Part shown: in pieces, positions 18,238 through 43,761 of the stretch | Layout of the letters: every line of letters begins with the position of its first letter | How positions within the stretch are numbered: position 1 is the first letter of the stretch | NCBI GenBank assembly: GCA_963737905.1 | Contig: CAVTUQ010000007.1 | Span: 320,001 to 384,000 of the forward strand | Length of the DNA stretch: 64,000 nucleotides | Direction of reading: 5' to 3' | Source of the DNA: an uncultured delta proteobacterium | GTDB lineage: Bacteria > Desulfobacterota > Binatia > UBA9968 | Made by a program: the position numbers and the translations under genes | The notes under the pieces: generated by a model | What the model was told of the DNA's origin: nothing | Seen by the model: the letters and a program-made list of their open reading frames with translations, nothing else | The model's database searches: none

Positions 18238-18265
18238 AGTTGACATAATATATCTTATCAGACGT
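18238..18265 (-). other. Chromosomal dif site (XerC/XerD)
   Basis: Bottom strand ACGTCTGATAA-GATATA-TTATGTCAACT; XerD arm 9/11 to E. coli dif; gene orientation converges on this region. Confidence 0.85.
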
Positions 18266-18511
18266 TACGCTAGCGTAAGCGCCTGGACACAAATTTCGCC
18301 GTTCCAGCCAAACTTGAACGATCACTTCAAAATTTAGGCATCCGCTTTGAAATAGTCGAGCGCGTGAAAAAGCGCGACGACGACATCCCATCCACTCGCG
18401 ATCTACAAATCTTCAAATTAGAGCGCGAAGTCGCCGAGCTTAAAGACAATCGCAAAAACTTAAATTACAATCGGACTCTACCAGGGTCAGCGGGAATCTC
18501 AGACCGAGCTT

Positions 18512-18877
18512 AAAGCCATCGGTCTCGCCGTTGATGCGGGCACAGGTTTTGTACCAGTGGGCGGAGTGGTACGACAGTTTGCAAAAGGTGTTCAACGCGG
18601 AGCAGCAGCCGGCGAAGCCATGGCAGCAGCCAAGACAGCAGCGACGGCGGTCAAAGAAGCGACAGAGAAGAATGCTGACACGTTGATTCAAGATGCCATT
18701 GCGAAGGGGATGAAGACTGAAGGCGTTAAGTTCCCGATGCGGTGGAAAGATATTCCTGTAGATGTAGCAGAAGAGTTTGCGAAAACGGCCATCTATCCTG
18801 CTGGGTTGTCAGCAAGCGGATAAAGCAAAAATCCTTGCGACCCGTAGTAAAGCAGGTCCAGTAGAAAGCATTATTCA
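18512..18877 (+). repeat. Copy 1 of ~360-bp direct repeat (fragment of an Ala/Gly-rich, possibly phage-like gene)
   Basis: Near identical to 26998-27351. Confidence 0.9.
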
Positions 18878-18978
18878 ACAACCGCAAAAACTGACGCCGC
18901 GAGAAGAGTTCACCAGAGCAGGTCGATTCATTACCGATGAGCCGGACTACGAACCGCCTTGCCACTACCCTTTACGTC

Positions 18979-19084
18979 GTAGGATTGAAATATACGACGC
19001 TTCAGCGCAATTTGGGTTCAAACCCCGCGGGGCATTCCAATTGTTTTAAATTCAGACTGAATCACTACCCGCAGTCCCGCTCGT
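18979..19084 (+). repeat. Module copy M0 (palindrome half plus start of leader, truncated)
   Basis: Collinear with 33259-33366. Confidence 0.85.
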
Positions 19085-19152
19085 CGCAAAAGCGCCGGAC
19101 CTCATGGCTGCGCATTCTTCAGGTGCCTAACGTTACTTCACATAAAAGCAGG

Positions 19153-19554
19153 CTACGACGTGCGGCCCCAAGCCTGCGCCTCAATCTTCCAGACGCCATC
19201 GTGATTGGCGAACGTGTACGCAAGGGTACCTGTGCGAACGACGGACTGGCCCTTGATCGTGACAGCGAGAGTCCCTGATATGACTGCATAGGCGGACGAG
19301 CCCTCGACATTCCAGAAGCCCATCTCGTAGGAGAGGTGCTCGTGGGTCACGCCAAGGTCCTCACGCCATTTCGCTACGTCAGCAAGCCAATTGGCCGGAG
19401 CATTTGGGTTCAACCAGCGATAGGGCGCAATGCCGTCGATGATGATCGCGGTGTCCCCGAAAACGCTGAGGAAAAGATCGCTGTCTTGGGTGTTGAAGCC
19501 GTTGATGTGGGCGTCGATTAGAGTCTGGATTCCACCCGGTGGGTTGCTCGTCAT
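19153..19554 (-). CDS. SnoaL/NTF2-like protein
   Basis: GGAGG before MTSNPP; DTAIIIDGIAPYRW, WKIEAQAW. Confidence 0.8.
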   Translation of the reverse strand: MTSNPPGGIQTLIDAHINGFNTQDSDLFLSVFGDTAIIIDGIAPYRWLNPNAPANWLADVAKWREDLGVTHEHLSYEMGFWNVEGSSAYAVISGTLAVTIKGQSVVRTGTLAYTFANHDGVWKIEAQAWGRTS

Positions 19555-19581
19555 GGTAATCCTCCACTGCCGGTAGGCAGC

Positions 19582-19795
19582 TAGTGTCCTGACCCCGAAG
19601 AAAATGAAATAAATAGCACGGTCCACTCGTTTACAGGGAGGCGAGCATGCCACTGGGACGCCCGAAGGTCGCGCTGATTCTGACGGACGACGAGCGCGTA
19701 CGAGTCGACTCGTTGGCTCATCGGTCCCGCACGGCGCCGCGCCTGGCACGTCGGGCGCGGATCATTTCTCGCGTGCGCCGAGGGCTGGGACAGCA
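19582..19795 (+). mobile_element. IS630-family remnant (left end and transposase N-terminus)
   Basis: TA followed by GTGTCCTG; MPLGRPKVALILTDDER...ARRARII. Confidence 0.75.
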
Positions 19796-20034
19796 CATTG
19801 ATTCAAGGACAACTCGAAGCTTCATGCTCCCTCCATCCTGAAACGTTACGCCTCTGGGGCAGAAACAGCAAACTAACCATTGAGTATACTGACCAGTATA
19901 TTACAGAGCCCCAAGTCAGACTGAATCATTATTCAACAGTCCCGCTCGTGGACTCTCAATGTCAGGGAGTAGGTCTACAAGTTTTAAAGGACATTTTGCA
20001 CCTTGAATCATGATTCTTAATCATTTACTTAACA

Positions 20035-20278
20035 ATGAAAATGAAGGCGGAAGAGCTTTACGAATTGCGCAATGCTGCGAGCGTTACACAAGTGGAACTT
20101 GCAGCTCCATCTCGGCGTGGATCGTCGCACCGTGGGACGGTGGGAGAATGGTCAAATCAAAATCCCTTGCGCTTCGGTTATCGCGATTCGAGCGCTCCTA
20201 CTCCCCTGCCCTACTGATGCAGCGTGGCGCTGCTGGCTCTCCGCTGAACTAGCAAAGAAGACCAGAGCTAGGCCGTGA
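20035..20278 (+). pseudogene. XRE-family HTH protein, copy 1 (1-bp insertion near 20107)
   Basis: GCAGCTCCATC versus GCAGCTCATC in intact copy 23006..23248. Confidence 0.8.
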
Positions 20279-20517
20279 GCCACAAGCAAGTCAAGGTAAC
20301 GCGAACAATTTCAGATGATATCATCCTTCAGATTGTGGAGAATGGACAGATTAAAGAACAGACGACACTGTCCTGGTCGGAAGTCATCTATTTGGTTGTG
20401 GACATGCTTGCGCTATGGCGAGCGTTGCCTCTGCTCGTGCCGGTGGGTGACTACCTGGAGCAGATCTGTGATTTTTGGGAAGGAATATGCGAGCCGGTTA
20501 TCCACTACCTGATTTAA
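20275..20517 (+). CDS. Hypothetical 80-aa protein ORF80, copy 1
   Basis: GTGA overlap with HTH gene; same length and frame as copy 2. Confidence 0.7.
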   Translation: MSHKQVKVTRTISDDIILQIVENGQIKEQTTLSWSEVIYLVVDMLALWRALPLLVPVGDYLEQICDFWEGICEPVIHYLI

Positions 20518-20588
20518 CTTCTGTAAACTAGACGGGGGTCGCGGTTTGTTTGGTTGGGATGGCTATTATTATGCTTGCCTGGTCATGC

Positions 20589-21227
20589 CTAGGGTGTTAA
20601 TCCAGGATGCTCCCTAAGCGCACGTAGCTCTGCCAGAGACTCATAGAGTATAGTAAACGCGCTCTTCAAGAATAACGTAGCAATTGCGACTCCAACTATT
20701 ATGTCGGGCCAAGAAGAGGCAAAAAACGTTACACCTCCAGCGGCTACTAGCACCGCTAAATTTGCAATAATATCGTTACGCGAGCATAGCCATGTAGAAC
20801 GCATGTTAAGGTCATCGGCGCGATGGCGAAAAAGCAACAGGAAGCAAATACCATTACCCAGCAAAACTAGCACTCCGATAATGCCCATCGTCTCAGCGTT
20901 CGGTACAACCCCTAGCATCACTTTGTGAATGCCTTGTGCCAGGACTGCTAGTCCGAATGCGGCCATGATGATGCCTTTTACAATTGCAGCAGTCGCCTTC
21001 CACTTCAGGCTACGCCACAGGACATACAGGCTGAATCCGTACACAAGTGCATCGCCGAGCATATCGAGTGAGTCGGCGAGGAGCGCCGTCGAATGTGCGA
21101 TCAATCCAGCGGCCGCCTCCACGATGAACAGGACTGCATTGATGGCCAAGACGATAATGAGAATCTTCTTGTGTTCATTGCGCAACGCGCTCAATTCTTC
21201 TGCTTTTGTCTCGCAACAGGAGTCCAT
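20589..21227 (-). CDS. Cation diffusion facilitator (Co/Zn/Cd efflux) membrane domain protein
   Basis: STALLADSLDMLGD and DLNMRSTWLCSRND motifs. Confidence 0.9.
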   Translation of the reverse strand: MDSCCETKAEELSALRNEHKKILIIVLAINAVLFIVEAAAGLIAHSTALLADSLDMLGDALVYGFSLYVLWRSLKWKATAAIVKGIIMAAFGLAVLAQGIHKVMLGVVPNAETMGIIGVLVLLGNGICFLLLFRHRADDLNMRSTWLCSRNDIIANLAVLVAAGGVTFFASSWPDIIVGVAIATLFLKSAFTILYESLAELRALREHPGLTP

Positions 21228-21443: not shown

Positions 21444-22886
21444 ATGATCATGGCCCAACCAAAAACAAGGCAGAAAGCGGATCGTCACGGTTGGATCGGC
21501 ACCGAGAAGGTGAAGACCCGGTTCGGCACCTTCGAATTTAAAAACGGTTACCCCACGCTGGCAGCGGCGAACGCGCTGCTTGACCAGTTAAAATTCAACC
21601 GCGCAATCGAGGTCTATCTCACCCAAATCCCGGCTGTGGGCCTCTTCGAGTCGCGGCGTGGCGCTCGGGAGTTCGGGGCGACACGCTCCAACCAGGTCAT
21701 CATCTGGGAAACGCTCATGGACGCGAAAACACTCGTGCTCACAGCGAACACCGAGACGGTGTACGGGATGGGCTTCCTCGATGTGAAGAGCGATGGCCCA
21801 ACTGTCTTCGAAGCCCCGCCAAAAATGCTCGGGGCGGCAATGGACATTCTACAACGCTTCCTGGTAGACATCGGCCCGCTCGGACCAGACAAAGGCCAGG
21901 GCGGGAAATATCTTTTTCTGCCGCCGGACTATAAGGGCGATGCGCCGGGGGGCTATTTCGTCGTAAAGTCATCGACCTACTGTGTCAACTATTTCATCCG
22001 TGGTTTCAAAGTGGACGGGAAGACGGATCAGGCCGTGGCGCTCATGAAACAGACAAAAATCTACCCCCTGACCAAAGCAGGAGAGCCGCCGAAGATGGAG
22101 TTCCTGAACGGCTCGGGCCAGGCCATCGACACGATCCACTCAGATACCATTTCGTTCTTCGAGCAGCTTTCCGCGCTTGTGAACGAGGAACCTGCGGAAG
22201 TCTTCACGCCGCTTGAGCGGTTTTACATGCAGTCCATCGGCATCGAGAAGGGAAAGAAGTTCAACCCGGATGCGAAAACGAAGGCATTGCTCTCGGCCGC
22301 GGCGAAGGTAGCGGCTGCGATGGCGCGTGCCAACAGCTTCGCCTCTCAGGATTCGGACACGTTCTACTATAAGGATCGCCAGTGGCAGGGCGTCGGCGAT
22401 GTTCCCTATACCTTCATGAAGGACGGTGTGCTAGCGGTGGACCGCCGGGCATTCGTTTATTACATGGCACTCGGCAACTCGCCAGCTATGATGGCCAAGA
22501 ACGTCGGCGTCGGCTCGCAGTACCTCTGAACCTACAAGGATGCCAAAGGCAATTTCCTCGACGGTACGAAGAACTACAAACTGCACGTCCCACCCAAGAT
22601 TCCGATCAACAATTTCTGGTCGGTGCTGGTGTACGATTCGCTCAGCCGATCAGAGCTACAGAACGGCCAACCATTCCCCTCGGTCAGTCAGTACACCGAT
22701 CCGAAGATCAACGCCGACGGCTCGGTGGACATATATTTCGGCCCCCAGATGCCAAAAGGTCAGGAGAAGAACTGGATCAGGACCGTTCCCAAGAAAGGAT
22801 GGTTCCCGATCTTTCGCTTCTACGGCCCACTGGAACCCTTCTTCGACAAGAGCTGGAAGCTGAACGATGTCGAGCAGGTGAAATGA
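21444..22886 (+). pseudogene. DUF1254/DUF1214 protein with in-frame stop at 22527-22529
   Basis: LTANTETVY, GPDKGQGGKYL; frame continues TYKDAKGNFLDG...FWSVLVYD...FRFYGP. Confidence 0.85.
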
Positions 22887-23005
22887 ACTCCTCCGGCTAT
22901 CGTCGGTTGGAGTCACTAGCCACAGTCCATGTCGTGGAGTAGGTCTATAAGTTTTGACGGGACATTTTGCACCTTGAATCATGATTCTTAATCATTTACT
23001 TAACA

Positions 23006-23248
23006 ATGAAAATGAAGGCGGAAGAGCTTTACGAATTGCGCATCGCTGGGAGCGTTCCGCAAGAGGAGCTTGCAGCTCATCTCGGCGTGGATCGTCGCAC
23101 CGTGGGAAGATGGGAGAATGGTCAAATCAAAATCCCTTGCGCTTCGGTTATCGCGATTCGAGCGCTCCTACTCCCCTGCCCTACTGATGAAGCGTGGCGC
23201 TGCTGGCTCTCCGCTGAACCAGCAAAGAAAATCAGAGCTAGGCCGTGA
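23006..23248 (+). CDS. XRE-family HTH protein, copy 2 (intact)
   Basis: QEELAAHLGVDRRTVGRWENG signature. Confidence 0.85.
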   Translation: MKMKAEELYELRIAGSVPQEELAAHLGVDRRTVGRWENGQIKIPCASVIAIRALLLPCPTDEAWRCWLSAEPAKKIRARP

Positions 23249-23487
23249 GCCACAAGCAAGTCAAGGTAACGCGAACAATTTCAGACGACATCGTTCTTCA
23301 GATTGTGGAGAATGGAGAAGTCAAAGAACAGACGATACTCTCCGGGTCGGAAGTCATCTATTTGATTGCGGATATGCTTGCGCTGTGGCGAGCGTTGCCT
23401 CTGCTGGTGCCCGTGGGTGACTACCTGGAGGAGATTTGCGATGTTTGGGAAGGGATCTGCGAACCGGTCATCCATTACCTGATTTAA
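23245..23487 (+). CDS. Hypothetical 80-aa protein ORF80, copy 2
   Basis: Paralog of 20275..20517. Confidence 0.7.
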   Translation: MSHKQVKVTRTISDDIVLQIVENGEVKEQTILSGSEVIYLIADMLALWRALPLLVPVGDYLEEICDVWEGICEPVIHYLI

Positions 23488-23636: not shown

Positions 23637-25202
23637 CTAGTTCCCCGTGGGCAGCCCGATGTTGAACCCGTCCTTCGCAAGTTGTTCTCTCAGATACTGG
23701 AGTCTCTGGTACTGCGTGACCGTGATTGGGCCCGAATAGCCTTCGCTCTGCAGTTTCCGCGGAGGGTGCTTCAGATAAGTTTGCATCAGCTCCTTGATCG
23801 CCGCGTTAATCGTCACGAGTGTCCAAGTGTGTTCCGTGTAATTGTTCATGAAGATGTCGTAGCGTTCCTGCGGATCCTGCCAGAGGTCGAAAATCTGGGG
23901 AACGGTCGCGACGTACGACTGCGCACCTTTCCAGCCAAGGTTGGAGTCGACTGCGAGGCCTCCCGTGTTCGCGCCGTCGTCACCACGCAGGTTGAAAACG
24001 GCCTTATAGTGGCCCACCCGCGCTGCGCCCGGCGTCAGCTCGTTCTCGGTAAAGTAGAACCAGGCCTTGCGCTCGGACTTGCCAGTGCCAAACAGCACCG
24101 GCGACATGTCGTAGCTATCGAAGATGATGGGCTTGCCGTCGCGATCGTTCTCCGGCAACTTCACGCCGGCGAGCGCGGCAAAGGTCGCCATGTAGTCGAG
24201 GCCGCCGACGAGATCAGCGGTCCGTGATAGAGCCCTGATGCCCGGGCCCCAAGCGATCGAAGGAACGCGGTTCCCGCCCTCGCGCACGGTGCCCTTGGTG
24301 CCTCGGAACGGCGTGTAGCCGGCGTCAGGGTAGACGTCCTGCCAGGCGCCATTGTCCGTCGTCCAGAATACGTAGGTATCCTTGTCGAGGCCGAGCGAAC
24401 GGATCTTGTCCATGATACGGCCGATCCGCGTGTCGTTCTCTACGATCGAATCCGCGTACTTCGATTTCGAGAGCGACTTGTGCTTGAAATCCGGGTGCGG
24501 CATGTTCGGCTGATGCACCTTCATGAAGTTGACGTGCATGAAAAATGGCGCCTCCGACTTCGCGTTGCTATCGAGGAACTCGAGTGCATCTTTCTCGACG
24601 TATTCATCGTAAAAGGGAATGCCCACCAGCCCCTTCTCAGGCGTGTTGACGTACTGGCCGTTGACCTTGAAGTCCTCTTTCGCCTTCTCGCCCGCCTTGC
24701 CCGACAGCGCGCCCTGAGTCACGCGCTCGAACATCGCGCGCAGTTCCGGATCCATATCTGGGAACCATTCCGGGTCGGCATAAGTGTACGCATTGAGGTG
24801 ATACAGGCCGCAGTGCCGCATTTCATCAAAGCCGTGCGCATTGGGAAGCGCATAGTCGGACTCGCCGAGGTGCCACTTGCCGGTGAAGAATGTCTTGTAA
24901 TCGGCGGTCTTGAGGACGGAGGCGAGGGTCCATTCGGCCGCCGGCAGCCCGCCGCCCTGACCCTGGAAGGCCACGGTCGTCATGCCGCTGCGATTCGGGA
25001 TGCGTCCGGTGATCATCGCCGCGCGGCCAGCCGTGCAACTCGGTTGCGCGTAGAAGGACATGAACTGCATGCCCTCGGCCGCCATCCGGTCGAGATTTGG
25101 AGTCGGCATTCCGCGATTCTCGCCGCCTCCATACACGCCCGCATCCCCATAACCGAAGTCGTCCGAGACGATGAGAACGATGTTTGACTTCTTTGGCGGC
25201 AT
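23637..25202 (-). CDS. Arylsulfatase (Cys-type)
   Basis: SDDFG, CTAGRAAMITG, GKWHLG motifs. Confidence 0.95.
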   Translation of the reverse strand: MPPKKSNIVLIVSDDFGYGDAGVYGGGENRGMPTPNLDRMAAEGMQFMSFYAQPSCTAGRAAMITGRIPNRSGMTTVAFQGQGGGLPAAEWTLASVLKTADYKTFFTGKWHLGESDYALPNAHGFDEMRHCGLYHLNAYTYADPEWFPDMDPELRAMFERVTQGALSGKAGEKAKEDFKVNGQYVNTPEKGLVGIPFYDEYVEKDALEFLDSNAKSEAPFFMHVNFMKVHQPNMPHPDFKHKSLSKSKYADSIVENDTRIGRIMDKIRSLGLDKDTYVFWTTDNGAWQDVYPDAGYTPFRGTKGTVREGGNRVPSIAWGPGIRALSRTADLVGGLDYMATFAALAGVKLPENDRDGKPIIFDSYDMSPVLFGTGKSERKAWFYFTENELTPGAARVGHYKAVFNLRGDDGANTGGLAVDSNLGWKGAQSYVATVPQIFDLWQDPQERYDIFMNNYTEHTWTLVTINAAIKELMQTYLKHPPRKLQSEGYSGPITVTQYQRLQYLREQLAKDGFNIGLPTGN

Positions 25203-25390: not shown

Positions 25391-25417
25391 CTACCGCCTT
25401 TAGTCAGCCGGTCAAGC

Positions 25418-25677
25418 CATTCGAATTTTTTAATTCAGACTGGATCATTATCCACACTCCCCCTTGTGGACCACTCAATATCAGGGCAGTAAGTCTGCAA
25501 GTTTTAATGGGACATTTTGCGCCTTGAATTGTGATCAACTTATTAGGTACTTGATAGTGAAAATGAAGGCGCAGGAGCTTTACGAATTGTGCATCGGTGC
25601 GAGGGTAACTACCTGGAGAAGATCTGCGGTTTTGGGAAGGGATCTGCGAACCGGTCATCCACTACCTGATTTAAGTT
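25418..25677 (+). repeat. Module copy M3 (leader plus internally deleted HTH/ORF80)
   Basis: HTH 5' end joined directly to GGGTAACTACC end sequence. Confidence 0.85.
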
Positions 25678-28358: not shown

Positions 28359-28445
28359 TTCATTTGCGGTATCCAATCACTCTGAAATAATGCTCCGACT
28401 CCTCGTAAGGAACACCGACAGGCAAATGTATTTCATGGCCGCCTC

Positions 28446-34773: not shown

Positions 34774-35163
34774 CGCGTGCCCATCAGGGCTCAACTTTCC
34801 AGAAATGATGTCAATCACGCGCTGCACCTCCTGGAATTCGGACTGCCCCATGTCGAAGATCACTTCGATTCTGTTGTTCCGATCTCTCGCAATTTCAAGA
34901 AGGAGGCGAGATGAACTGAACTCAATCGAACGTAAGTGAAAGTGCCCGATATGTCCCCATGTGATTCAAAGGTTGTACTCTCGCCGGCACTGACAATCCT
35001 CCAGGGCCACTAACGGCGCCCTGACCACTTTCACTTTTTGGAATAAGCAAGCGCAACTGTTCACCAACTCTTTCAACTAGCCCTGCTACGCTTTTACTCG
35101 AGGTAAGCACTGAGCTGCTTGGCGTCGTTGTACGCCTGCATCGCTTTAGCTGTTCGTGATCGA

Positions 35164-36315: not shown

Positions 36316-36331
36316 GGTTGTTTTCTCTTTT

Positions 36332-37531
36332 TCAGGTCTCGATGGCGATGGCGACGGCCTCACCGCCGCCCAAACAAAGCGCGGCTAGGCCACGCCGCAA
36401 ATAACGCTCGCGGAGTGCATGCACTAAAGTGACTAGCAGACGCGCGCCCGTGGCGCCGAGTGGATGGCCGAGCGCAATCGCACCGCCCTTGATATTGACC
36501 TTATCCCAATTCCAACCACTGTCCGCCAAAGCGTACCCATTCGCCAATATTTGTGCGGCAAATGCTTCGTTCAATTCGATCAAATCGACCTCATCGAGTG
36601 TCCAGCCAACCCGGGTCAGCAAACGCGGAATCGCTTTGGCCGGGGCATCGAAAATATATTTCGGTTCCACTGCCACCTGAGTATAACCAACAATGCGGGC
36701 CAGTGGTTGCGCGCCTGTGGCCTTGGCTTTCGCTTCGCTACCGATGACGAGCGCGCTGGCGGCATCGTTCAACCCTGGCGCATTGCCAGCCGTGACTCGA
36801 CCATCCGATCTGAAGGCCGGTGGAAGTTTAGCCAGTGCTTCTAGCGAGGTGTCGCGGCGCGGCCCTTCGTCCTGCTCCACTATGAAGGTTTCGCCTTTGC
36901 GTCCATTAATATGAACAGGAACGATTTCATCTTTGAATTTCCCACTCTCGATCGCGGTGATCGCTTTGCGATGACTCGACAGGGCATACTCATCCATTGC
37001 TTCGCGCGTCACTCCGTATTCGTCGGCAATAAATTCGGCTGCGTTGCCCATTGCCCAATCCTCGAAAGCGCACCATAACCCGTCCACGACCAACGCATCT
37101 TTGAGTTGGGCATGGCCGTAACGCAATTGGTTCAGATGCCTTTCGAGCAGATACGGCGCATTACTCATGCTTTCCACTCCGCCAACGACAAATACCTTGC
37201 CATCCCCAGCCCGGATTGCCTGGGTCGCGAGCATGGCGGCTTTGAGGCTCGCACCACAGACCTTATTCACAGTTGTCGCGCCGACACTGCTGGGCAGACC
37301 GCCTCGGATGGCGCACTGGCGTGCGATATTTTGACCCAAGCCGGCGGAGACGACATTGCCCATTAATAATTCGTCAATATCTTCGAGGTTGGGCACACCC
37401 GCTTGGGATACAGCGGCGCGCACAACCGCTGCACCCAACTGCACGGCGGACACTGAGGATAAAGCGCCTTGCAATCGCCCGATGGGGGTGCGGACTGCGC
37501 TCAAGATGAATGCTTGCGTTATCCCGTTCAT
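36332..37531 (-). CDS. Acetyl-CoA C-acetyltransferase (thiolase)
   Basis: NKVCGAS, NEAFA, GHPLGATG, LCLGGG. Confidence 0.95.
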   Translation of the reverse strand: MNGITQAFILSAVRTPIGRLQGALSSVSAVQLGAAVVRAAVSQAGVPNLEDIDELLMGNVVSAGLGQNIARQCAIRGGLPSSVGATTVNKVCGASLKAAMLATQAIRAGDGKVFVVGGVESMSNAPYLLERHLNQLRYGHAQLKDALVVDGLWCAFEDWAMGNAAEFIADEYGVTREAMDEYALSSHRKAITAIESGKFKDEIVPVHINGRKGETFIVEQDEGPRRDTSLEALAKLPPAFRSDGRVTAGNAPGLNDAASALVIGSEAKAKATGAQPLARIVGYTQVAVEPKYIFDAPAKAIPRLLTRVGWTLDEVDLIELNEAFAAQILANGYALADSGWNWDKVNIKGGAIALGHPLGATGARLLVTLVHALRERYLRRGLAALCLGGGEAVAIAIET

Positions 37532-37732
37532 ACTCACTCCGTTTTCATATCTCAGGCGTGTTGATCACTAACCCACTACTATTCGCGGCAGGCAATGCAC
37601 TTACAGTCGCTGGCTATATTCTAAAGCCAACGAGTAATGCTCCCGTACAGATTAAACCATAGATCCAGATCTCTGGCGATTGCCGCGAAACCGCTCAACC
37701 AATGAATACCTGCAAGGCACAACTGTACTCCA

Positions 37733-37799
37733 CAGGATTGAACTAACCGAGCCTCAGACAAATCTCACAGGATTTAGCCGATGGAGAAATCAGTTCAAT
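37733..37799. repeat. Family C palindromic element
   Basis: CAGGATTGAACT...AAATCTCACAGGATTT...TCAGTTCAAT. Confidence 0.8.
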
Positions 37800-37809
37800 T
37801 AGAAGCTTA

Positions 37810-37837
37810 ACGTCCGATATGAGGGATTAGTGCCACT
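37810..37837 (+). other. dif-like site, inverted relative to 18238
   Basis: ACGTCCGATAT-GAGGGA-TTAGTGCCACT: 9/11 to local XerC arm, 7/11 to local XerD arm. Confidence 0.55.
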
Positions 37838-37853
37838 CTTGGACGCCATGCCC

Positions 37854-39452
37854 TTAGCGCGAAGAACTAGACGGCCCAGAGCTGAGAGCTACAGCTATAC
37901 AGCCAATACCAGAAAGGCTACGAAGGATCTCGCCAGAGCCGCGAATGGGCAACCAAACCTCCATACCCTCGAATACACATGTGAGCCGGTAAGTTCTCTT
38001 CAGGGCTCCCCACATCCTGTCGTCCCACTTCCGAAGACCACGGTAGCGGTTACCCTCGTGGTCCTCGGCCTCTCCATTCCGAATGACAATGAGATCGTAC
38101 ATGCCCGCGTCTATTTGAGTTACAACAGGCCCGGAGTTCCATCGGCCTCGGAGTTCGAGAACCGAATTCAAATATGGGTCGGGAATCTCCGGGGTCATGC
38201 TGTGAACTGTCACGTCTGGAAGAGTCGACAGCAACCTTCGCCCGGACACCGTGGACACGAAAGACTCCCACTTCGTCTTGCGAACTTGATAGTCGCTAAC
38301 ATTCGCATAACTACTCCTCAGATACTCAACTTCTTGCCGCAGCATCGGCATAAACGCCTGCAGGAGCAATACAAAGAGCATCGCTATGACCAGTATCGGA
38401 GTGCGATTTGCCTTCCGTTGAAGTTCGCACAGTCCCGGCCCAGCCAGGACTGCCGAGGCCACTAATGGTTCCCAGAAGTAGTTTATGTTGCCTCCCACTT
38501 GCGGAATAGTGAGACTCGCCACGAGCCACGCGACAATACAGTAAATGAGAAAGAGGAGCCGTTCAGGAGCACGTTTCCACAGAGCTAAGAAACCACCTAT
38601 AGCAGCGAGAGGCACCACTGGTTGAGACGCGGCGTTCCAAAGTATGGATAACGCCCCCGAGAATTCAAGGACCGGGTGCCGAAGAGCCGCGATGTGTTTC
38701 AGCATCAGAGGCTCACGCCACCACACAATTGCATATCCACCGGCAACGGTCAGCGCAACACCTGTAGCCCAGAGGATAGCCTCCTTGTATCGCCGCTGGT
38801 AGAGAAGCCAGCTAACAATAGCGATCGGCACGGAGAAGAATGTCGGCTTAACGAGAAGTGCAATCCCGGCGCAGATTGCGGCACCGATCGCCTGCGGGCG
38901 CGCATTCGTGAGGAGGAACCAGTAAACACTCAAAAGCGACAATGCAAGTGCTAGGAAATCGCCTCGAATCTGAGTTGTCCAGAAAGCTAGCGGATGCGCA
39001 GACACGGCGAATAGGGCGCAAAGCCACGCGATGGGGCGCGAGCTGTACAGTCGTCTGCTGATCAGGAATATGAGTAAAACGCACAGGCACAGCGCGCACA
39101 CTATAACGAGTCGCACCAGCACCTGAGGAGTGATGCCAGCGGCTTGCGCCAGCCTATAAGGAACTGTAAGGAGGACATAAGTCAATGGCCCGTAAATAGT
39201 AACTAAATACGGAGGGCGATCACTGTCGGGATAGATATGACCAGAACGGATGACTTGCTCAATTCTAAGCAGAGTGGCGCTGTCCGGATAATCCACGTCT
39301 CTAAAGTTCGCCAGCCCGAGAGCCGTGCCAACTGCTGTACACAAGGCACCTGCCAGCAAGAGGGCAACCACCGATCCACTCAATAGCGACTTGCACCGCA
39401 GTGCTTTAATCACGCGCCCAGCAGTCCCACGCTTTATGCCGCATGTCGCCAC
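37854..39452 (-). CDS. Integral membrane GT-C (ArnT/PMT-like) glycosyltransferase-like protein
   Basis: Multiple TM segments, TIYGPL, IRGDFLA, LLVKPT. Confidence 0.7.
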   Translation of the reverse strand: MATCGIKRGTAGRVIKALRCKSLLSGSVVALLLAGALCTAVGTALGLANFRDVDYPDSATLLRIEQVIRSGHIYPDSDRPPYLVTIYGPLTYVLLTVPYRLAQAAGITPQVLVRLVIVCALCLCVLLIFLISRRLYSSRPIAWLCALFAVSAHPLAFWTTQIRGDFLALALSLLSVYWFLLTNARPQAIGAAICAGIALLVKPTFFSVPIAIVSWLLYQRRYKEAILWATGVALTVAGGYAIVWWREPLMLKHIAALRHPVLEFSGALSILWNAASQPVVPLAAIGGFLALWKRAPERLLFLIYCIVAWLVASLTIPQVGGNINYFWEPLVASAVLAGPGLCELQRKANRTPILVIAMLFVLLLQAFMPMLRQEVEYLRSSYANVSDYQVRKTKWESFVSTVSGRRLLSTLPDVTVHSMTPEIPDPYLNSVLELRGRWNSGPVVTQIDAGMYDLIVIRNGEAEDHEGNRYRGLRKWDDRMWGALKRTYRLTCVFEGMEVWLPIRGSGEILRSLSGIGCIAVALSSGPSSSSR

Positions 39453-39581
39453 ACTCCCAACAATTGACTCCTCCCGGTTGATACCCGAGGACCGAAGTGA
39501 GTTGTCGTGAAATCAGAAGTTTTTTTCATCGCCACTTAAACCTAAACGCGCGTAAATCGGAAGATGTACTTTGCATGGCCA

Positions 39582-40328
39582 CTATAATAGCCTGCTAGCT
39601 GCCGATTCTGGGCCATTTGGAATCGTCGTAAGTCGCCAGACAGCAATGATCGTTTTGCCAACGGAATATAGGAACAGCCTGTCAAAAACTCGCGAAATTG
39701 GGACGACCCAGCGATCCCAGAATCGAAGTTGAGATCTGGTCGGCATGGATTGCCGGAGCAATAGCCTGTTGGCGGCCGACAAGATCAAGCCGGCGCAATC
39801 CAGATATTGCATTCGTTCGAGTCGGAGCCTTGCAGGCGAAATCGCTCGCAGCATCGGGCGATTGTAACGCCGAAAGTGCCCGATGGCAGCATCAAACGGA
39901 GAAAAGAGGCGCTGGTGCGCGGGCGATAGGACGATGAGGTGACCGCCAGGCTGAAGGTGCGATGCCGCTTGATTCAGTTCTTCACGGTCGTTGTCGATGT
40001 GCTCCAAGACGTCAATGTAGATGATCGTATCGAACTTCTGGTCGGCCAGCGATTCTAATGTTCCGCAGACAGTTTCGTACGTGCGCCGTGGTTCCGTTTC
40101 TGCTAAATTCTTGCCTAACTGGACGATGAGTTCAGGATCGGGCTCCAGGCAAACCCACCGACCAGGGCCGGCGGGATCGAGAAATCTGGTGTTCGATCCA
40201 ATTCCGGCGCCCACTTCGAGAATATCGCCCACGAGAAACGGTCGTATCTGCCGGGACCAGTATGCCTTCCAGTTCCATACGGCAGCGAACAGGTGCAATT
40301 CTGAGCCAACATCCTTGAATTCACTCAT
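39582..40328 (-). CDS. Class I SAM-dependent methyltransferase
   Basis: ILEVGAGIG, DVLEHI, GHFRRY. Confidence 0.9.
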   Translation of the reverse strand: MSEFKDVGSELHLFAAVWNWKAYWSRQIRPFLVGDILEVGAGIGSNTRFLDPAGPGRWVCLEPDPELIVQLGKNLAETEPRRTYETVCGTLESLADQKFDTIIYIDVLEHIDNDREELNQAASHLQPGGHLIVLSPAHQRLFSPFDAAIGHFRRYNRPMLRAISPARLRLERMQYLDCAGLILSAANRLLLRQSMPTRSQLRFWDRWVVPISRVFDRLFLYSVGKTIIAVWRLTTIPNGPESAASRLL

Positions 40329-41301
40329 GAGAATAGATGTCTATGGCCCCTTCCACAAAAAATGAGTAATCCCGGAGAGGCACAAAGCCCAGGCTCGCCC
40401 TGTTGGAAAGCAGAAAGAATGCAAAGCTCGTCGCAATCGTGACCAACTGAATCACGACAATGGCGAGGATGCCGGTTGTATAGGTAGCCCACCCAGGTAT
40501 TGCCGGGTTGGTAAAGAGCCGGATCATGGTGATGAGAACCATTCCAAAGCCAGCCAGGAAGGAACCGGCTAAAGAACCGATCAGAAGACGCACGCCGACA
40601 ATGTCTCCGAACACCGAGAAGGCGCTGAGACCGTGGCAAACCAAAGCGACGAAGTTCATCCCGGAAGTTCCCGCGATCCGGGTTCCCCTGGCAATTGGGA
40701 TCATCGTAAAGGGAAGTTTACTTCTATATACAGCAGCAGCGTAATGATTCCACAGTTCGCTCATCACGACGAGCGTATTCAGGTACCGGAAGGGCAGAAT
40801 ACTGAAGTTTCCTACTTTTACACCGATGCCCGTCAGGCATCGATGCAGGAATTTGTAGAGATAATAAAAACATCGAAACACAAGAGACTCCGACCGGCGG
40901 CTCCGTTCCGCAAAAATGGCCTTTCCACCGTGGGTGTCCGAATAGGCGCGTAGAAGCTGTGCCACGCCCTCTGGTGTATCCTCTCCATCGGCATCCATCA
41001 CAATCACGGCGTCGCAGCTGGTGGTTTGCTGAACGTGGACAAGCCCAATTGCGATTGCCCGCTGGTGGCCAAGATTGCGGCGTAGACGCAGAGTCCGGAT
41101 GGCTCGCACAATTGAGAAGCCAATTTGGAAGTCGTTGCGATCGCACTTCTGCACCGAGCCATCATCGACCAGGAGAATCTCCATCGTGCACGTATCGGAA
41201 GAAATGGCTTTGTCAAGCCGCCGGATTAGTTCCGCGGCAGAGGGCCAGTCGTCTCGGAGCGGCATTAGCACTATCAGGCGCAACGGTGGATGTTGAGTCA
41301 T
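40321..41301 (-). CDS. GT2 glycosyltransferase (polyprenol-phosphate type, GtrB/ArnC-like)
   Basis: VDDGS, NLGHQRAI, MDADGED, two C-terminal TM helices. Confidence 0.9.
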   Translation of the reverse strand: MTQHPPLRLIVLMPLRDDWPSAAELIRRLDKAISSDTCTMEILLVDDGSVQKCDRNDFQIGFSIVRAIRTLRLRRNLGHQRAIAIGLVHVQQTTSCDAVIVMDADGEDTPEGVAQLLRAYSDTHGGKAIFAERSRRSESLVFRCFYYLYKFLHRCLTGIGVKVGNFSILPFRYLNTLVVMSELWNHYAAAVYRSKLPFTMIPIARGTRIAGTSGMNFVALVCHGLSAFSVFGDIVGVRLLIGSLAGSFLAGFGMVLITMIRLFTNPAIPGWATYTTGILAIVVIQLVTIATSFAFFLLSNRASLGFVPLRDYSFFVEGAIDIYSHE

Positions 41302-41719
41302 GTTGTACTTTCCAGGCGGCGGGGTTGAGAAATGCGATGTGCCGCCATTAAATCAGCCCTGGCGCAGTTAGGTCAAATCGCAATGCTCGTCGAGCGAAAT
41401 ATCAACCTACCCTTCGGTCGTAGAGATTCGGGCCAAGCCTTAAAGGACAAAGCAAATGTGTGGCCGCATCACAGCAACCTTCGAGTTTAGTGACATCCGG
41501 GGTTCGCTGGAACCTCGACCGCGACCTGCCGAAGTACACGCCGCGCTTTAAAGTCGCCCGAGACTTCGCCCAAAATTCCCGTCATTGTCCGGCGCAAGGG
41601 CAGCAGGGAGTGCAGGCTTATGCACTGGGGTTGATTTCGCATTGGGCCGCAGATCCTCAATCATATGATAAACTCCCGGCTCTTTTAGACCCTGCTGCAA
41701 TGCCTCAAGCCGGAGAGCT

Positions 41720-41852
41720 CGGGAAGAAGCAGGGGGTAAGCGTTAAAAAAACTATTCGAGGAATCTCTTTTTGCTGCTGCGCCTCGGCTATCACTCCAAC
41801 AGCAAGCAACGCCACTGCAACAAGGATTGACGGCACCGCAGCCTTCTTCATT
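41720..41852 (-). pseudogene. 5' stub of an ABC SBP paralog of 32163..33149
   Basis: MKKAAVPSILVAVALLAVGVIAEAQQQK then frameshift into IPRIVFL. Confidence 0.75.
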
Positions 41853-42155
41853 ACACACCCCGTTCCGAGTGTTATTTATCACGCGGAACGAAGCGGTTTG
41901 TCAAATGAAGTTCTAGGACAAACGGAGATCAACGCCTCGGCCTAAACTCACAGGATTTGTGTGATGGAGAGAACGCAAATTGCCGATCTAAATATCCGTT
42001 TTTCACGACAATCAAACCACTCTCACTTAGCTCTGAGAATCGAAAAAATTCGGCGTAGCATTGAATTGTACGACGCCTCAGACAAAAATTTCACAAGATT
42101 TCTTCGTTGGAGAAGTCAGTTCCATTTAACACTACTCTGGATTAGATCCACCTAT

Positions 42156-42350
42156 TTACTGCTCCACAAAACCTTCACGCTCCATCGCCATTAGATGCTG
42201 ATTTAGCCTCTGTCTGTGTTGATCGAGCTCGTGGAGAATGACGGCGCACTCATGATCGAACCGCATATGGTCAAAAAGCATTCCGGAGAGAACCCCCACG
42301 CTGAAGAGATATACACCCACAATAACAGCGGTGAATCGACGGTTTTCCAT
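42156..42350 (-). CDS. Small membrane-anchored hypothetical protein
   Basis: 64 aa, one TM segment, purine-rich RBS. Confidence 0.55.
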   Translation of the reverse strand: MENRRFTAVIVGVYLFSVGVLSGMLFDHMRFDHECAVILHELDQHRQRLNQHLMAMEREGFVEQ

Positions 42351-42964
42351 TATGCTGCCACCCCTTTGAATATTTTAGCTGCATGTCTCTGTTTGAAGGA
42401 TCACAAGTTTTTGACTATTGCCTGTCTCGAGCGCAACGTACATGCCACGAATAGAAGCCCATAAAAATCACAACTTATGAGTGAAGGGTATTGTCAAGAA
42501 CCGTCGCAAACTTGCTACAGTCGGAGTATCAGATTTTGAGGCACTTCACGTCGAGAACGCGACGGGGACTTAGTTGAGTAGGAAGGCCAGAATCAGCCTG
42601 AGATTGGATTGGGCTGCGACATCGGTTGCACTCTGAGCGTCTGTTGATTCCTCTCTCCTCTTTGGTTCTTCCGCACTTCCGACCGTCCCGGCCGTATCGT
42701 GTCAATTCTTGTCGCAGGAGTGCGTACGCTCTTTGGGAGACGAGCTCGTTAAGAATCAAGCGGAACCGCATGAACTGGGCGGCTGGCACACAGCCTGCTC
42801 CATTCCAGATACGCGAGGTAATGCGGCGGCAGCCGCAGGCGATTGGGGGCACCCGGCTAGTGAAAGAGCTCGCCTCCCAGCACCGGCGGCGCGACGCTTG
42901 CGGTGGGAGAAGATGGACGCGCACATTTCAGGTAGGAATACTAACTTTCTGAAAGGAGCATAGT

Positions 42965-43393
42965 ATGTTGTATCTCACAAAACTCATTCGGTCACATGTA
43001 ATGACTCTTGCGGCGTGTGGTGCAGTCTTGGCTACCATGCCCGTTGAGGCTGCTTTTGCAAAAGCCACTGATCCGAGTACGTATCAAGATTCTTGTCAAG
43101 CCCTTGATGTTGCCGGAGCAACCCTGACGGCAGTGTGTCGGAGAAAAGATGGCTCATTAAACGCGAGAACCGCAATTCGGATTCGCGGCATCGACAATGT
43201 GAACGGCAAGTTGGCCTATTCTCGTAATCCCGCTGCCATTAGTACGTATCAAGATTCTTGCGAGAACACTGGCGTTATTGGAGCGACCCTGACAGCAAAG
43301 TGTCGGAAAAAAGATGGCTCATTTAACGAAAAAACCACAATTCTGATTCGCGGCATCGATAATTTGAATGGAAAGTTGACCTATTCGAAGTAG
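42965..43393 (+). CDS. Secreted cyanovirin-N homolog (CVNH)-like lectin
   Basis: AAGGAG RBS, signal peptide, two tandem STYQDSC...GATLTAxCRxKDGS...IRGIDNxNGKL repeats. Confidence 0.8.
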   Translation: MLYLTKLIRSHVMTLAACGAVLATMPVEAAFAKATDPSTYQDSCQALDVAGATLTAVCRRKDGSLNARTAIRIRGIDNVNGKLAYSRNPAAISTYQDSCENTGVIGATLTAKCRKKDGSFNEKTTILIRGIDNLNGKLTYSK

Positions 43394-43608
43394 CAACTCG
43401 AGTGCGTTCGAGGTAGTTGTTTGCGTCCATGAGGGTGGAATGAATCTTGGTCGTTACCCCCTCCCGGCGTGGTGAGATGAGGGCATTTCCCTCGCTTTTG
43501 GAGCCATTGGAATGATCCGCCGGGAGGGGGGAACGCGATGGTCTGACATCATGTTTCTACCAGTGTGTCCTGTGAGCTGTCTCTCACATGGAAGGAACCG
43601 CGTGAGCG

Positions 43609-43721
43609 ACGAATTGCGCATCGGTGCGAGGGTGATTACCTGGAAGAGATCTGCGATTTTTGGGAAGGGGTCTGCGAGCCGGTTCATCCACTACCTGATT
43701 TCAAGTTATGTAAACTTAGAC
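43609..43721 (+). repeat. Module copy M6 (deleted form) ending in XerD arm TTATGTAAACT (43706-43716)
   Basis: Matches M3/M5 junction and M1 3' end. Confidence 0.9.
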
Positions 43722-43727
43722 AAAGCG

Positions 43728-43761
43728 CCTATGACTGGCACCGATTATCAGACGTTACGCT
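43728..43761 (-). other. attR-like site: intact XerC arm, degenerate XerD arm
   Basis: TTATCAGACGTTACGCT identical to 18255-18271. Confidence 0.7.

What the first reader, a model, noticed from the sequence alone, without database searches (positions are those of the whole stretch)
18255..43761. Candidate new system: integrase-less, dif-anchored gene-accumulation array built from iterated mini-modules
Seen: 25.5 kb bounded by an exact 17-bp repeat containing the XerC arm. Seven co-oriented copies of one backbone occur inside (18979, 19913, 22910, 25418, 27352, 33259, 43609). They are separated by unrelated cargo: NTF2-like, CDF metal efflux, DUF1254, sulfatase, VOC, YciI, EthD, cytochrome c, SBP, oxidoreductase + thiolase, GT trio and lectin. 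Nearly all cargo is on the - strand, and no tyrosine/serine recombinase, rep or phage structural gene is recognisable. Known: IMEXs (CTX, TLC, GGI) use host XerCD to integrate at dif, regenerate dif and can form tandem arrays. Inference: repeated Xer-mediated integration of a small non-autonomous element carrying variable cargo, functionally like an integron but run by host Xer.
Basis: partly seen in the sequence, partly recalled or inferred. Interest (0 to 1): 0.9.

Follow-up and report, generated by a model that had tools for sequence, protein, structure and literature searches.

The report
Gene island docked beside chromosomal dif
A 25.5-kb stretch of foreign genes sits right beside the site where this soil bacterium untangles its chromosome, and it carries seven copies or remnants of one small orphan element, so it looks like an unusual relative of the mobile elements that borrow the host's own recombination machinery.

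Summary
Window 18236-18266 is the chromosome's single dif site. It has one strong PWM hit in the genome, lies at the GC-skew maximum of a 488-kb contig, and occurs once per genome in 47 of 61 family genomes. An exact 17-bp repeat (XerC arm plus 5 nt) bounds a 25.5-kb insert that is missing from relatives, where sqr, dif and the TPR gene lie within 3 kb in 20 of 30 loci. Seven co-oriented copies or relics of one backbone (XRE-type HTH gene plus an orphan 80-aa ORF) occur only here in the genome. No recombinase gene lies inside. Host XerC and XerD genes exist elsewhere.

The same backbone lies next to dif, with different cargo, on 2 of 8 metagenome contigs.

- No internal junction keeps a Xer arm.
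- The right junction is not a canonical hybrid site (central region 1 of 6 identical; the XerD-arm motif is inverted and 26 nt away).
- The repeat resembles a 17-bp target duplication.
- Some repeats are in-situ duplications.
- The element's ends match halves of a dispersed 75-bp inverted-repeat element.

Best reading: a decaying composite island of an IMEX-like, non-autonomous element family. Xer catalysis is plausible but unproven. It is a new variant of a known kind.

The parts
16968..18125 (+). Left flank: sulfide:quinone oxidoreductase-like gene with a conserved in-frame TGA at 17961-17963
   Evidence: Pfam Pyr_redox_2 and FCSD_central. Orthologues lie next to dif in relatives. The TGA and the in-frame tail are conserved in all 6 sequences printed.
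18236..18266 (+). Chromosomal dif: XerD arm 18236-18248, central region 18249-18254, XerC arm 18255-18266
   Evidence: The PWM built from family sites scores 58.9 of 59.4 bits here; the next best site in the genome scores 8.4. It lies at the cumulative GC-skew maximum of contig C7. The pattern occurs once in 47 of 61 family genomes, and the reversed control gives 0.
18255..18271 (+). Left copy of the exact 17-bp repeat (XerC arm plus 5 nt)
18272..18385 (+). LE: left-end segment of the island, conserved next to dif on metagenome contig L072
18512..18877 (+). R1: 5'-truncated, frameshifted copy of a 160-aa orphan gene
18975..19084 (+). Backbone copy A (leader segments a1-a2 only); its first ~40 nt match the left half of element B
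19153..19749 (-). Cargo: SnoaL-like ORF (weak match)
19913..20535 (+). Backbone copy B, full length; HTH gene frameshifted, ORF2 open; weakened XerD-arm motif at 20519
20589..21227 (-). Cargo: cation diffusion facilitator
21444..22886 (+). Cargo: DUF1254/DUF1214 gene with an in-frame TGA at 22527-22529
22905..23487 (+). Backbone copy C, full length: HTH_3 gene 23006-23248 and orphan ORF2 23245-23487
23637..25202 (-). Cargo: sulfatase
25405..25674 (+). Backbone copy D (mini form: HTH 5' end fused to the last 73 nt of ORF2)
26998..27351 (+). R2: second copy of R, with the same truncation and frameshift, fused directly to copy F
27351..27460 (+). Backbone copy F (last 73 nt only) followed by the right half of element B
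27631..32022 (-). Cargo block: glyoxalase-fold protein, YCII, IS (DDE_Tnp_1 plus DUF772, frameshifted, about 28942-30236), EthD, cytochrome c
   Evidence: Contigs from other runs join 28941 to 30237, which is the empty site of the IS.
32058..32141 (+). Element B copy (75-bp inverted-repeat element)
32163..33185 (-). Cargo: ABC_sub_bind substrate-binding protein (family with 135 tblastn HSPs in this genome)
33255..33559 (+). Backbone copy E (mini form, same deletion junction as D and G)
34326..34677 (+). Element B copy interrupted by about 280 bp
34922..37537 (-). Cargo: 110-aa ORF, FAD oxidoreductase, thiolase
37731..37839 (+). Element B copy followed by an inverted pseudo-dif (XerC-arm-like, 14.6 bits, minus strand, 37809-37820)
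37854..41301 (-). Cargo: PMT_2 glycosyltransferase, methyltransferase, GT2
41929..42131 (+). Two adjacent element B copies
42965..43393 (+). Cargo: CVNH lectin with an internal tandem duplication
43602..43744 (+). Backbone copy G (mini form) and right end RE; near-consensus XerD-arm motif on the minus strand at 43706-43718
   Evidence: The XerD-arm PWM scores 21.6 of 25 bits, tied second best in the genome.
43745..43761 (+). Right copy of the exact 17-bp repeat
43768..44463 (-). Right flank: TPR_21 protein gene, which lies next to dif in relatives

Best explanation
The interval is a composite, decaying genomic island inserted on the XerC-arm side of the chromosome's only dif site. It is built around a lineage-specific, recombinase-less element family. 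The element carries a 160-aa orphan gene R, an XRE-type HTH gene and an 80-aa orphan ORF2. Its 3' end carries a conserved XerD-arm motif, and its termini match the two halves of a dispersed 75-bp inverted-repeat element, B.

Shown:
- The site is dif.
- The island is an insertion bounded by a 17-bp duplication that starts exactly at the XerC-arm/central-region boundary.
- The backbone occurs only here in this genome, and next to dif in two other organisms with different cargo.
- No recombinase lies inside, and the host has XerC and XerD.

Inferred:
- The element family uses dif-bound XerCD for targeting and probably for at least one strand cleavage. That makes it IMEX-like, closest in logic to the TLC type with its degenerate XerD arm.
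- The array then grew in one orientation by further insertions. These were either re-integration at the regenerated dif or RecA-type recombination of incoming circles with a resident backbone copy, plus in-situ duplication.
- It is now eroding through a frameshift, a nonsense codon, shared internal deletions and an IS insertion.

I do not read it as a dedicated cassette-capture machine.
For: dif identity:
- One PWM site of 58.9 bits against 8.4 for the next best.
- Position at the GC-skew maximum of a 488-kb contig.
- One copy in 47 of 61 family genomes, two in 2, none in 12, and 0 for the reversed control.

Insertion:
- sqr, dif and the TPR gene lie within 3 kb in 20 of 30 dif loci, including same-genus G002.

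Boundaries:
- The exact 17-mer occurs twice only.

No recombinase inside; host Xer present:
- No recombinase gene in the island.
- XerD at 357 bits and XerC at 336.5 bits, both above their cut-offs.

Backbone and dif:
- The backbone occurs only in the island.
- ORF2 was found in 1 of 61 related genomes, the window's own. It has 31 metagenome homologues at 70-89% identity, mostly on short contigs.
- 2 of 8 metagenome loci carry sqr-dif-backbone in the same orientation. The L072 cargo is an ECF sigma/anti-sigma pair, unlike any cargo here.

XerD-arm motif after ORF2:
- 21.6 of 25 bits in copy G.
- Present at up to 1 mismatch in 6 of 8 metagenome loci.

Mini form:
- The same deletion junction is seen in D, E, G and metagenome locus L070. 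Conserved ends with a deleted middle suggest cis-acting ends.

Tandem units:
- In L072 the right end RE abuts a 26-nt LE-like sequence with 23 of 26 matches.

In-situ duplication:
- R1 and R2 are 96% identical and share the same truncation and frameshift.
- The 73-nt segment is 96% identical between E and F.
Against: - The right junction is not a canonical Xer hybrid. The six bases in the central-region position match dif at 1 of 6. The 13 bases in the XerD-arm position match at 2 of 13. The good XerD-arm motif is inverted and 26 nt away.
- The duplication runs 5 nt beyond the family-conserved arm (one search gives the conservation profile). That fits a staggered-cut target duplication better than a crossover.
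- No XerC arm of 9 bits or more lies beside copies A-F. The only internal hit of note is inverted.
- Foreign DNA starts 5 nt after the arm here, but at least 14 nt after it in L073.
- The gap between the XerC arm and the TPR stop codon is only about 11 nt. Any tolerated insertion between the two would therefore look dif-adjacent.
- No free or circular form was found: none in viral contigs and no circle junction in Logan contigs.
- The tree of copies is a star and cannot separate independent arrivals from old duplication.
Confidence: 0.5

Rival explanations
1. One reading: a dedicated, integron-like platform. Small non-autonomous modules, each with the same backbone and different cargo, are integrated one after another into the regenerated dif by host XerCD.
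For: - Seven co-oriented backbone copies are separated by unrelated cargo.
- Full-length copies lie nearest dif. Mini forms, including the most diverged copy G, lie farthest from it, as expected if new arrivals enter at dif.
- The same backbone carries different cargo next to dif in L072.
- RE abuts an LE-like sequence in L072.
Against: - Each event should leave a XerC arm. None is found at internal junctions, although the 73-nt segment next to them is still 83-96% conserved.
- The backbone's 5' ends are ragged, so there is no fixed module boundary.
- Cargo units of 3-4 kb with three genes, IS fragments and B elements do not look like unit cassettes.
- The R1/R2 and E/F pairs are local duplications.
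- The right junction lacks central-region homology.
Confidence: 0.2
2. A transposition-like insertion, not a Xer crossover. A trans-mobilised element with B-type inverted-repeat ends, or an unknown integrase making 17-bp staggered cuts, inserted next to dif. It might use XerC-bound dif as a landmark, as the ISAjo2/IS1202 'dif hunters' are proposed to do. The array reflects repeated hits and B-mediated rearrangement.
For: - The exact 17-bp repeat loses similarity abruptly on both sides and includes 5 host-flank bases.
- The left-junction offset differs between hosts.
- The backbone termini equal the two halves of element B, which has 12-bp terminal inverted repeats.
- B gives 18 nhmmer hits in the genome at E<0.01, and copies occur in 3 of 20 relatives.
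- IS that insert 5 bp from the XerC site of dif are described, and the IS1202 family has a subgroup with duplications over 15 bp (abstract of PMC10132070).
Against: - There is no transposase in the backbone.
- LE and RE are direct repeats, not inverted, and lack the TGT...ACA ends given in that abstract.
- One edge of the duplication coincides exactly with the XerC cleavage position.
- The conserved XerD-arm motif is left unexplained.
- A target duplication around B copies was not established.
Confidence: 0.15
3. No dedicated mobility: a terminus-proximal junkyard. The short gap between dif and the TPR gene tolerates insertions, and the repeats arose by local duplication and recombination.
For: - Other genera have other genes in the same slot. 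An AAA_15/AAA_21 ATPase gene lies there in both g4 genomes, with no arm duplication. A different gene set lies there in G010.
- The R1/R2 and E/F pairs are local duplicates.
- Many genes in the island are broken.
Against: - The same backbone lies next to dif in three different hosts.
- The mini form with an identical junction recurs in another metagenome.
- The XerD-arm motif is conserved.
- The XerC arm is exactly duplicated.
Confidence: 0.1
4. An integron-type cassette cluster without its integrase (CALIN). B elements act as attC sites and are served in trans by the genome's IntI.
For: - A full integron integrase gene lies 112 kb away on the same contig (TIGR02249, 456 bits against a cut-off of 265).
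- B elements are about 75-bp imperfect inverted repeats ending in ...AAC / GTT..., placed at the 3' ends of co-oriented genes, both here and in arrays of SBP paralogues on C33 and C2.
Against: - B does not fold like attC. It forms a 9-13-bp outer stem and then an open interior; z-scores range from -2.5 to +0.6.
- Crude scans for R''/R' hairpins find no arrays, here or next to intI.
- Candidate sites starting at the GCTTAAC motifs do not fold better than shuffled sequence.
- No B copy lies near intI.
- This model does not explain the dif junctions.
Confidence: 0.05

Closest known systems
TLC-type IMEXs (TLC satellite phage of Vibrio cholerae; the review groups the gonococcal genetic island GGI with them)
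   Same: - Integrated at chromosomal dif with no recombinase of its own.
- One flank is a functional dif. The other keeps a good XerC arm and has no real XerD arm (review PMC4246890, passages read; for this locus).
- A small element-encoded HTH-type protein sits in the backbone. In TLC, the factor XafT activates XerD (titles and abstracts of PMC6744903 and PMC9226527). That XafT is an HTH protein is my recollection; a text search of PMC9226527 for 'HTH' found nothing.
   Different: - In TLC the central region of attP is almost identical to dif1. Here it matches at 1 of 6.
- There is no replication module and no phage gene.
- The HTH protein matches HTH_3, and no match to a XafT family was seen.
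- The duplication runs beyond the arm.
- The XerD-arm motif is inverted and 26 nt away.
CTX/RS1/TLC tandem arrays at dif1 of Vibrio cholerae
   Same: Several related elements stacked in one orientation at dif, including satellites and defective copies.
   Different: Those units are phage genomes with Rep and structural genes, and they keep dif-like sites between units. Here the internal junctions have no arms and the cargo is metabolic.
Acinetobacter dif modules (pdif modules) on plasmids and chromosomes
   Same: Integrase-less accumulation of unrelated accessory genes, attributed to host XerC/XerD (abstracts of PMC6449649, PMC12907356 and PMC13141974 in the listing).
   Different: Those modules are each bounded by pdif sites, and I recall that the sites alternate in orientation. 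Here only one full dif, one half site and one weak inverted pseudo-site exist in 25.5 kb. This island is chromosomal, lies at the true dif and has a repeated backbone, which dif modules lack.
ISAjo2/IS1202-family 'dif hunters'
   Same: Insertion a few bp outside the XerC-binding arm of dif, in a fixed orientation. The family includes members with long target duplications (abstract of PMC10132070).
   Different: Those are 1.5-kb IS with a 441-457-aa TnsB-like transposase, inverted ends and 5-bp duplications at dif. Nothing of that kind is in this island.

Membership tests
IMEX (integrative mobile element exploiting Xer) | Integrated at the chromosomal dif site | tested here: met
   The site is dif. 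The island starts 5 nt after the XerC arm, and relatives have an empty site.
IMEX (integrative mobile element exploiting Xer) | No recombinase of its own; host XerC/XerD present | tested here: met
   No PF00589, TIGR02249 or PF00239 match in C7:338255-363761. XerD and XerC score above their cut-offs elsewhere in the genome.
IMEX (integrative mobile element exploiting Xer) | Flanked by dif and a dif/attP hybrid site whose structure fits a Xer strand exchange | tested here: inconclusive
   The XerC arm is duplicated exactly and the repeat starts at the XerC cleavage position. However, the central region matches at 1 of 6, no XerD arm is in place, and the repeat extends 5 nt beyond the arm.
IMEX (integrative mobile element exploiting Xer) | Xer-dependent integration or excision; a free circular form | not testable with these tools
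   No circle junction in Logan contigs of 4 runs and no relative in viral contigs. Neither result is evidence of absence.
Acinetobacter-type dif modules | Each module bounded by a pair of XerC/XerD-type sites | tested here: not met
   The PWM scan of the island finds one dif, one extra XerC arm and one weak inverted arm. None lies beside backbone copies A-F.
Integron / CALIN | attC sites (R''/R' cores, bulged hairpin) after each cassette; intI adjacent for a complete integron | tested here: not met
   The crude scans and folds are negative. intI is 112 kb away. The standard attC covariance model was not available, so this rests on crude tests.
Filamentous-phage or satellite IMEX (CTX, VGJ, RS1) | Rolling-circle Rep and phage morphogenesis genes | tested here: not met
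   Pfam and PHROGs find none. Only the HTH protein hits phage repressor families, and weakly. ORF2 has no match in phage or plasmid records.
MITE / non-autonomous IS | Terminal inverted repeats, target duplication, dispersed copies | tested here: inconclusive
   Element B has 12-bp terminal inverted repeats and 18 dispersed hits, and the backbone ends match its halves. No target duplication and no partner transposase were identified.

The most novel reading that the evidence does not exclude
A new kind of dif-docked accretion system. A 1-1.5-kb recombinase-less 'adapter' (R-HTH-ORF2, ending in a XerD-arm motif and bounded by halves of a 75-bp inverted-repeat element) uses dif-bound XerCD in a non-canonical way. 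This would be a single XerC cleavage at the arm/central boundary plus a second cut 17 nt away. By this route the adapter inserts itself and whatever DNA it has captured next to dif. Repeated rounds would then build a one-way, integron-like store of accessory genes at the replication terminus.
Probability: 0.2. Interest if true: 0.85.

Novelty: new variant of a known kind. Interest (0 to 1): 0.6.

Why it matters
Elements that borrow XerCD are well studied in only a few Proteobacteria, where they carry cholera toxin, gonococcal secretion genes or, in Acinetobacter, resistance modules. This locus gives a well-defined dif site for a whole family of uncultivated soil bacteria. It also shows a recombinase-less element family that sits beside that site in three hosts, with a junction that fits none of the three described Xer integration pathways.

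If Xer is involved, this widens both the host range and the mechanistic range of Xer exploitation. It would also show that ordinary metabolic genes can pile up at the terminus by this route. If Xer is not involved, the exact 17-bp duplication that starts at the XerC cleavage point points to an unknown dif-targeting insertion mechanism.

Either way, the conserved XerD-arm motif, the mini forms and the link to a dispersed inverted-repeat element are concrete handles for experiments.

Tried and rejected
- attC / integron reading. Two crude scans for R''/R' hairpins found no arrays, either in the island or beside intI. Folds of B copies and of candidate sites were no better than shuffles, except B32 (z -2.5).
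- Rfam on 16500-45000 at E up to 1: 0 matches.
- ORF2 function.
  - The AlphaFold model has pLDDT 74, with three strands and two helices.
  - Foldseek against the PDB gave no match at E<=0.001; the best was 0.049.
  - The ESM Atlas gave no usable hit.
  - There is no match in phage or plasmid records.
  - The profile search of 1.84 billion representatives found 9 proteins. Six are 30-71 aa and match only part of the profile; the ninth is a 502-aa protein with a weak match.
- XerD-ORF2 complex prediction: no verdict (score 0.00).
- Viral contigs: none. Genome contigs: one 23-residue partial match only.
- Sequencing runs. Only Logan contigs were available, and the best holder had 0.21 of the words. 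Laying 4 runs on 17500-37400 showed no circular or excision junction. The joints seen were the empty site of the IS and intact B elements from other loci or organisms.
- Tree of 11 backbone copies. All 8 inner branches are weak. B and C are sisters at 76/83 support, so the tree does not decide between independent arrivals and duplication.
- Two dif copies in G012 (unpublished genome) proved to be near-identical variants of one region (98% over 277 bp), not an insertion. G067's two hits lie at contig ends with the same flanks.
- The search for the L072-type flank as an empty site found 0 of 61 family genomes, so the origin of those 9 nt stays open.
- The IS630-like fragment in cargo 1 was translated in the wrong frame and found no other copy. 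The inverted-repeat pair search there was too noisy to use.
- R protein: no longer relatives. Six near-length relatives exist, all unnamed apart from one automatic label.

Full report
**Where the window lies.** The window is C7:320001-384000 of a 6.7-Mb, 46-contig assembly that is 87% complete with 6.7% contamination. The closest public holders of the sequence are soil metagenomes.

**The site is dif.**
- The 31-nt sequence at 18236-18266 reads, on the + strand, as a 13-nt arm, a 6-nt centre (TATATC) and a 12-nt arm.
- The same sequence lies in otherwise unconserved spacers between an sqr-like gene and a TPR_21 gene in relatives.
- A degenerate 26-nt pattern of it was searched in 61 genomes of the family. 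49 have it: 47 once, 2 twice, and 12 (mostly incomplete) not at all. The reversed control gave 0 in every genome.
- A PWM built from the 30 fetched sites scores 58.9 of 59.4 bits here. The next best site in the whole genome scores 8.4.
- Cumulative GC skew rises for 330-340 kb along contig C7 and then falls. The turning point is in the 10-kb bin that holds the site.
- Genes converge on the site: + strand on the left, - strand on the right.
- The genome encodes XerD (357.2 bits, cut-off 329.6) and XerC (336.5 bits, cut-off 335.15).
- I assign the sqr-side arm to XerD and the TPR-side arm to XerC. This rests on my recollection that the XerD arm is the better conserved one across bacteria. No call tested it.
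- Three genomes in these counts (G006, G012, G065) are unpublished. Without them the figures are 46 of 58 with a match, 45 of them single.

**The island is an insertion at that site.**
- In 20 of the 30 fetched dif loci, sqr, dif and the TPR gene all lie within the 3-kb locus. That becomes 19 of 28 without the unpublished G065 and G012.
- Same-genus G002 has the empty arrangement, with about 290 bp between the two genes.
- Same-genus G001 has a contig break at dif. The two contig ends overlap by about 65 nt at roughly 88% identity, judged by eye from the printed ends. This fits an empty site with strain variation but does not prove it.
- In the window, the XerC arm plus the next 5 nt (17 nt in all) recurs exactly at 43745-43761, 6 nt before the TPR stop codon. 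There is no third copy at up to 3 mismatches on that strand.
- The bases after the right copy align with the chromosomal flank of G001.

**The repeats inside.**
- A full copy has about 250 nt of leader (a1-a4), an 80-aa HTH_3/XRE gene, an overlapping 80-aa ORF2 with no Pfam, PHROGs, PDB, phage or plasmid match, and a short tail a7.
- Copy C has both ORFs open. Copy B has a 1-nt insertion in the HTH gene.
- D, E and G share one deletion that fuses the first ~13 HTH codons, out of frame, to the last 73 nt of ORF2. The same junction occurs in metagenome locus L070.
- F is the last 73 nt alone.
- The 5' ends are ragged, starting at the beginning of a1, mid a1, the beginning of a2 or mid a2. The 3' end is constant.
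- BLAST against the whole assembly finds the backbone nowhere else.
- A second repeat, R, occurs at 18512-18877 and 26998-27351 at 96% identity. It is a fragment of a 160-aa orphan gene that is intact in metagenomes. Both window copies share the same 5' truncation and the same 1-nt frameshift, so one was copied from the other after decay.

**Cargo.**
- In addition there is a frameshifted DDE IS. Contigs from two other runs show its empty site.
- There is an in-frame TGA in the DUF1254/1214 gene.
- By my count, seventeen cargo ORFs are on the - strand and three on the + strand. The - strand is the leading strand on that side of dif, so the bias needs no special mechanism.

**The backbone elsewhere.**
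- ORF2 was found in none of 60 relatives, in no viral contig, and only as a 23-residue fragment in 185,579 species genomes.
- It has 31 metagenome homologues at 70-89% identity. Most lie on contigs under 5 kb, as expected for a repeat that breaks assemblies.
- A profile search of 1.84 billion representatives found nothing more distant.
- Of 8 metagenome loci fetched, two reach the chromosome.
  - L072 reads sqr, dif, LE, partial backbone, 6 kb of other genes, then a full backbone.
  - L073 reads sqr, dif, 700 bp, then a full backbone.
  - Both have the orientation seen in the window.
- The L072 cargo includes an ECF sigma/anti-sigma pair and shares no DNA with the window's cargo.
- So dif association holds in 3 of 3 informative cases. 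The other 6 loci are too short to tell.
- The first 114 nt of the island (LE) are conserved in L072. At L072's second copy the right end RE is followed, after 3 nt, by a 26-mer that matches LE at 23 of 26. No XerC arm lies between them.

**Xer-like signals in the element.**
- Just after ORF2 there is a 12-13-nt sequence that matches the XerD arm on the opposite strand. It scores 21.6 of 25 bits in copy G, tied second best in the genome. It is present at up to 1 mismatch in 6 of 8 metagenome loci and is weakened in copy B.
- In copy G it lies 26 nt before the right-hand XerC arm.
- The only other internal Xer-like site is an inverted pseudo-dif at 37809-37839. Its XerC-like arm scores 14.6 bits and the full-site score is 2.2, fourth best in the genome.

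**Why I do not accept the simple Xer model.**
- In a Xer crossover, the right junction should read element XerD arm, element centre, host XerC arm.
- The six bases in the centre position match dif at 1 of 6, and the arm position matches at 2 of 13.
- The review read says CTX needs homology next to the XerC side, and that the TLC centre is almost identical to dif1.
- The repeat also runs 5 nt past the arm, into bases that vary among family members. That is what a 17-nt staggered cut would give.
- Against a plain transposition reading, the other edge of the repeat is exactly the XerC cleavage position. The ends LE and RE are also direct repeats rather than inverted ones.
- Foreign DNA begins 5 nt after the arm here but at least 14 nt after it in L073.
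- Nine bases of unknown origin separate the arm from LE in L072. A search for them as an empty site found 0 of 61 genomes.
- No internal junction keeps an arm.

**Element B.**
- B is a 75-bp element with 12-bp terminal inverted repeats. It occurs 5 times in the island and gives 18 nhmmer hits at E<0.01 in the genome. The model was seeded with four island copies, so the enrichment is partly circular.
- Outside the island, B clusters beside paralogues of the ABC_sub_bind gene, a family with 135 tblastn HSPs in this genome.
- It is present in 3 of 20 relatives searched.
- The first ~40 nt of the backbone match B's left half. The sequence after a7 in copy F and in L073, L074 and L076 matches B's right half.
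- Contigs from other runs join those two halves through 20-26 nt, which is an intact B.
- So the backbone is either inserted into a B or is B's long form.
- B does not behave like attC. An integron integrase gene does exist 112 kb away.

**How the array grew.**
- The tree of 11 copies is unresolved.
- B and C are 92% identical over 493 columns. Over the 243-nt ORF2 alone, pairs that include a metagenome copy range from 84 to 94%.
- E, F and G form a close group in the 73-nt segment at 91-96%.
- R1/R2 and E/F show recent copying inside the array.
- Full copies lie near dif and mini copies lie far from it, which weakly fits entry at dif.
- I therefore favour a mixed history: one or more dif-targeted insertions, further accretion in the same orientation, local duplication, then decay.

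**Comparison with known systems.**
- The locus works most like an IMEX. It meets the location and no-recombinase criteria, but it fails or leaves open the hybrid-site criterion.
- It is not a set of Acinetobacter-type dif modules, because it has no paired sites.
- It is not an integron.
- It is not a phage array.
- The idea of Xer-run gene accumulation without an integrase is already in print for Acinetobacter (listing and abstracts).

**Verdict.** It is a new variant of a known kind, and its mechanism is unresolved.

Noticed in passing
window 16968-18125: The sqr-like gene has an in-frame TGA at 17961-17963, followed by 53 in-frame codons up to a TAA. The TGA and the tail are conserved in all 6 sequences printed (window, G001, G002, G004, G008, G018). 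A GC hairpin starts 12 nt downstream, though it is no more stable than shuffled sequence. The genome encodes SelA (606.9 bits). The gene is probably a selenocysteine-containing SQR.
   Followed up: partly
G000:C7:226498-227442 (outside the window): A full-length integron integrase gene (TIGR02249, 456 bits against a cut-off of 265) with no obvious attC array beside it in crude scans.
   Followed up: partly
L061:189-2201 and L060:17822-19831: Both genomes of genus g4 carry a 670-aa AAA_15/AAA_21 ATPase gene (abortive-infection-like) between dif and the TPR gene, with no duplication of the XerC arm. The same slot is therefore used by other DNA in other genera.
   Followed up: partly
window 32058-32141, 37731-37807, 42054-42131; G000:C33:6972-11593; G000:C2:249172-250534: A 75-bp element with 12-bp terminal inverted repeats flanks co-oriented ABC_sub_bind genes and gene fragments in several arrays in this genome. 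It also occurs in 3 of 20 relatives. Its nature is unknown; it could be REP-like, MITE-like or a recombination site.
   Followed up: partly
window 28942-30236: A frameshifted IS (DDE_Tnp_1 plus DUF772). Contigs from two other sequencing runs join 28941 to about 30237-30243, which shows the uninterrupted YCII-EthD arrangement.
   Followed up: partly
window 21444-22886: The DUF1254/DUF1214 gene reads through only if the TGA at 22527-22529 is decoded. This is either a nonsense mutation or, since the organism has SelA, conceivably another Sec codon.
   Followed up: no
window 42965-43393: The CVNH lectin gene contains a 146-nt internal tandem duplication at 81% identity.
   Followed up: no
window 26389-26428 and 26787-26826: A 40-nt inverted-repeat pair with an operator-like core brackets about 360 bp that hold only very small ORFs. 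It may be a small regulated gene or an antitoxin-like locus.
   Followed up: no
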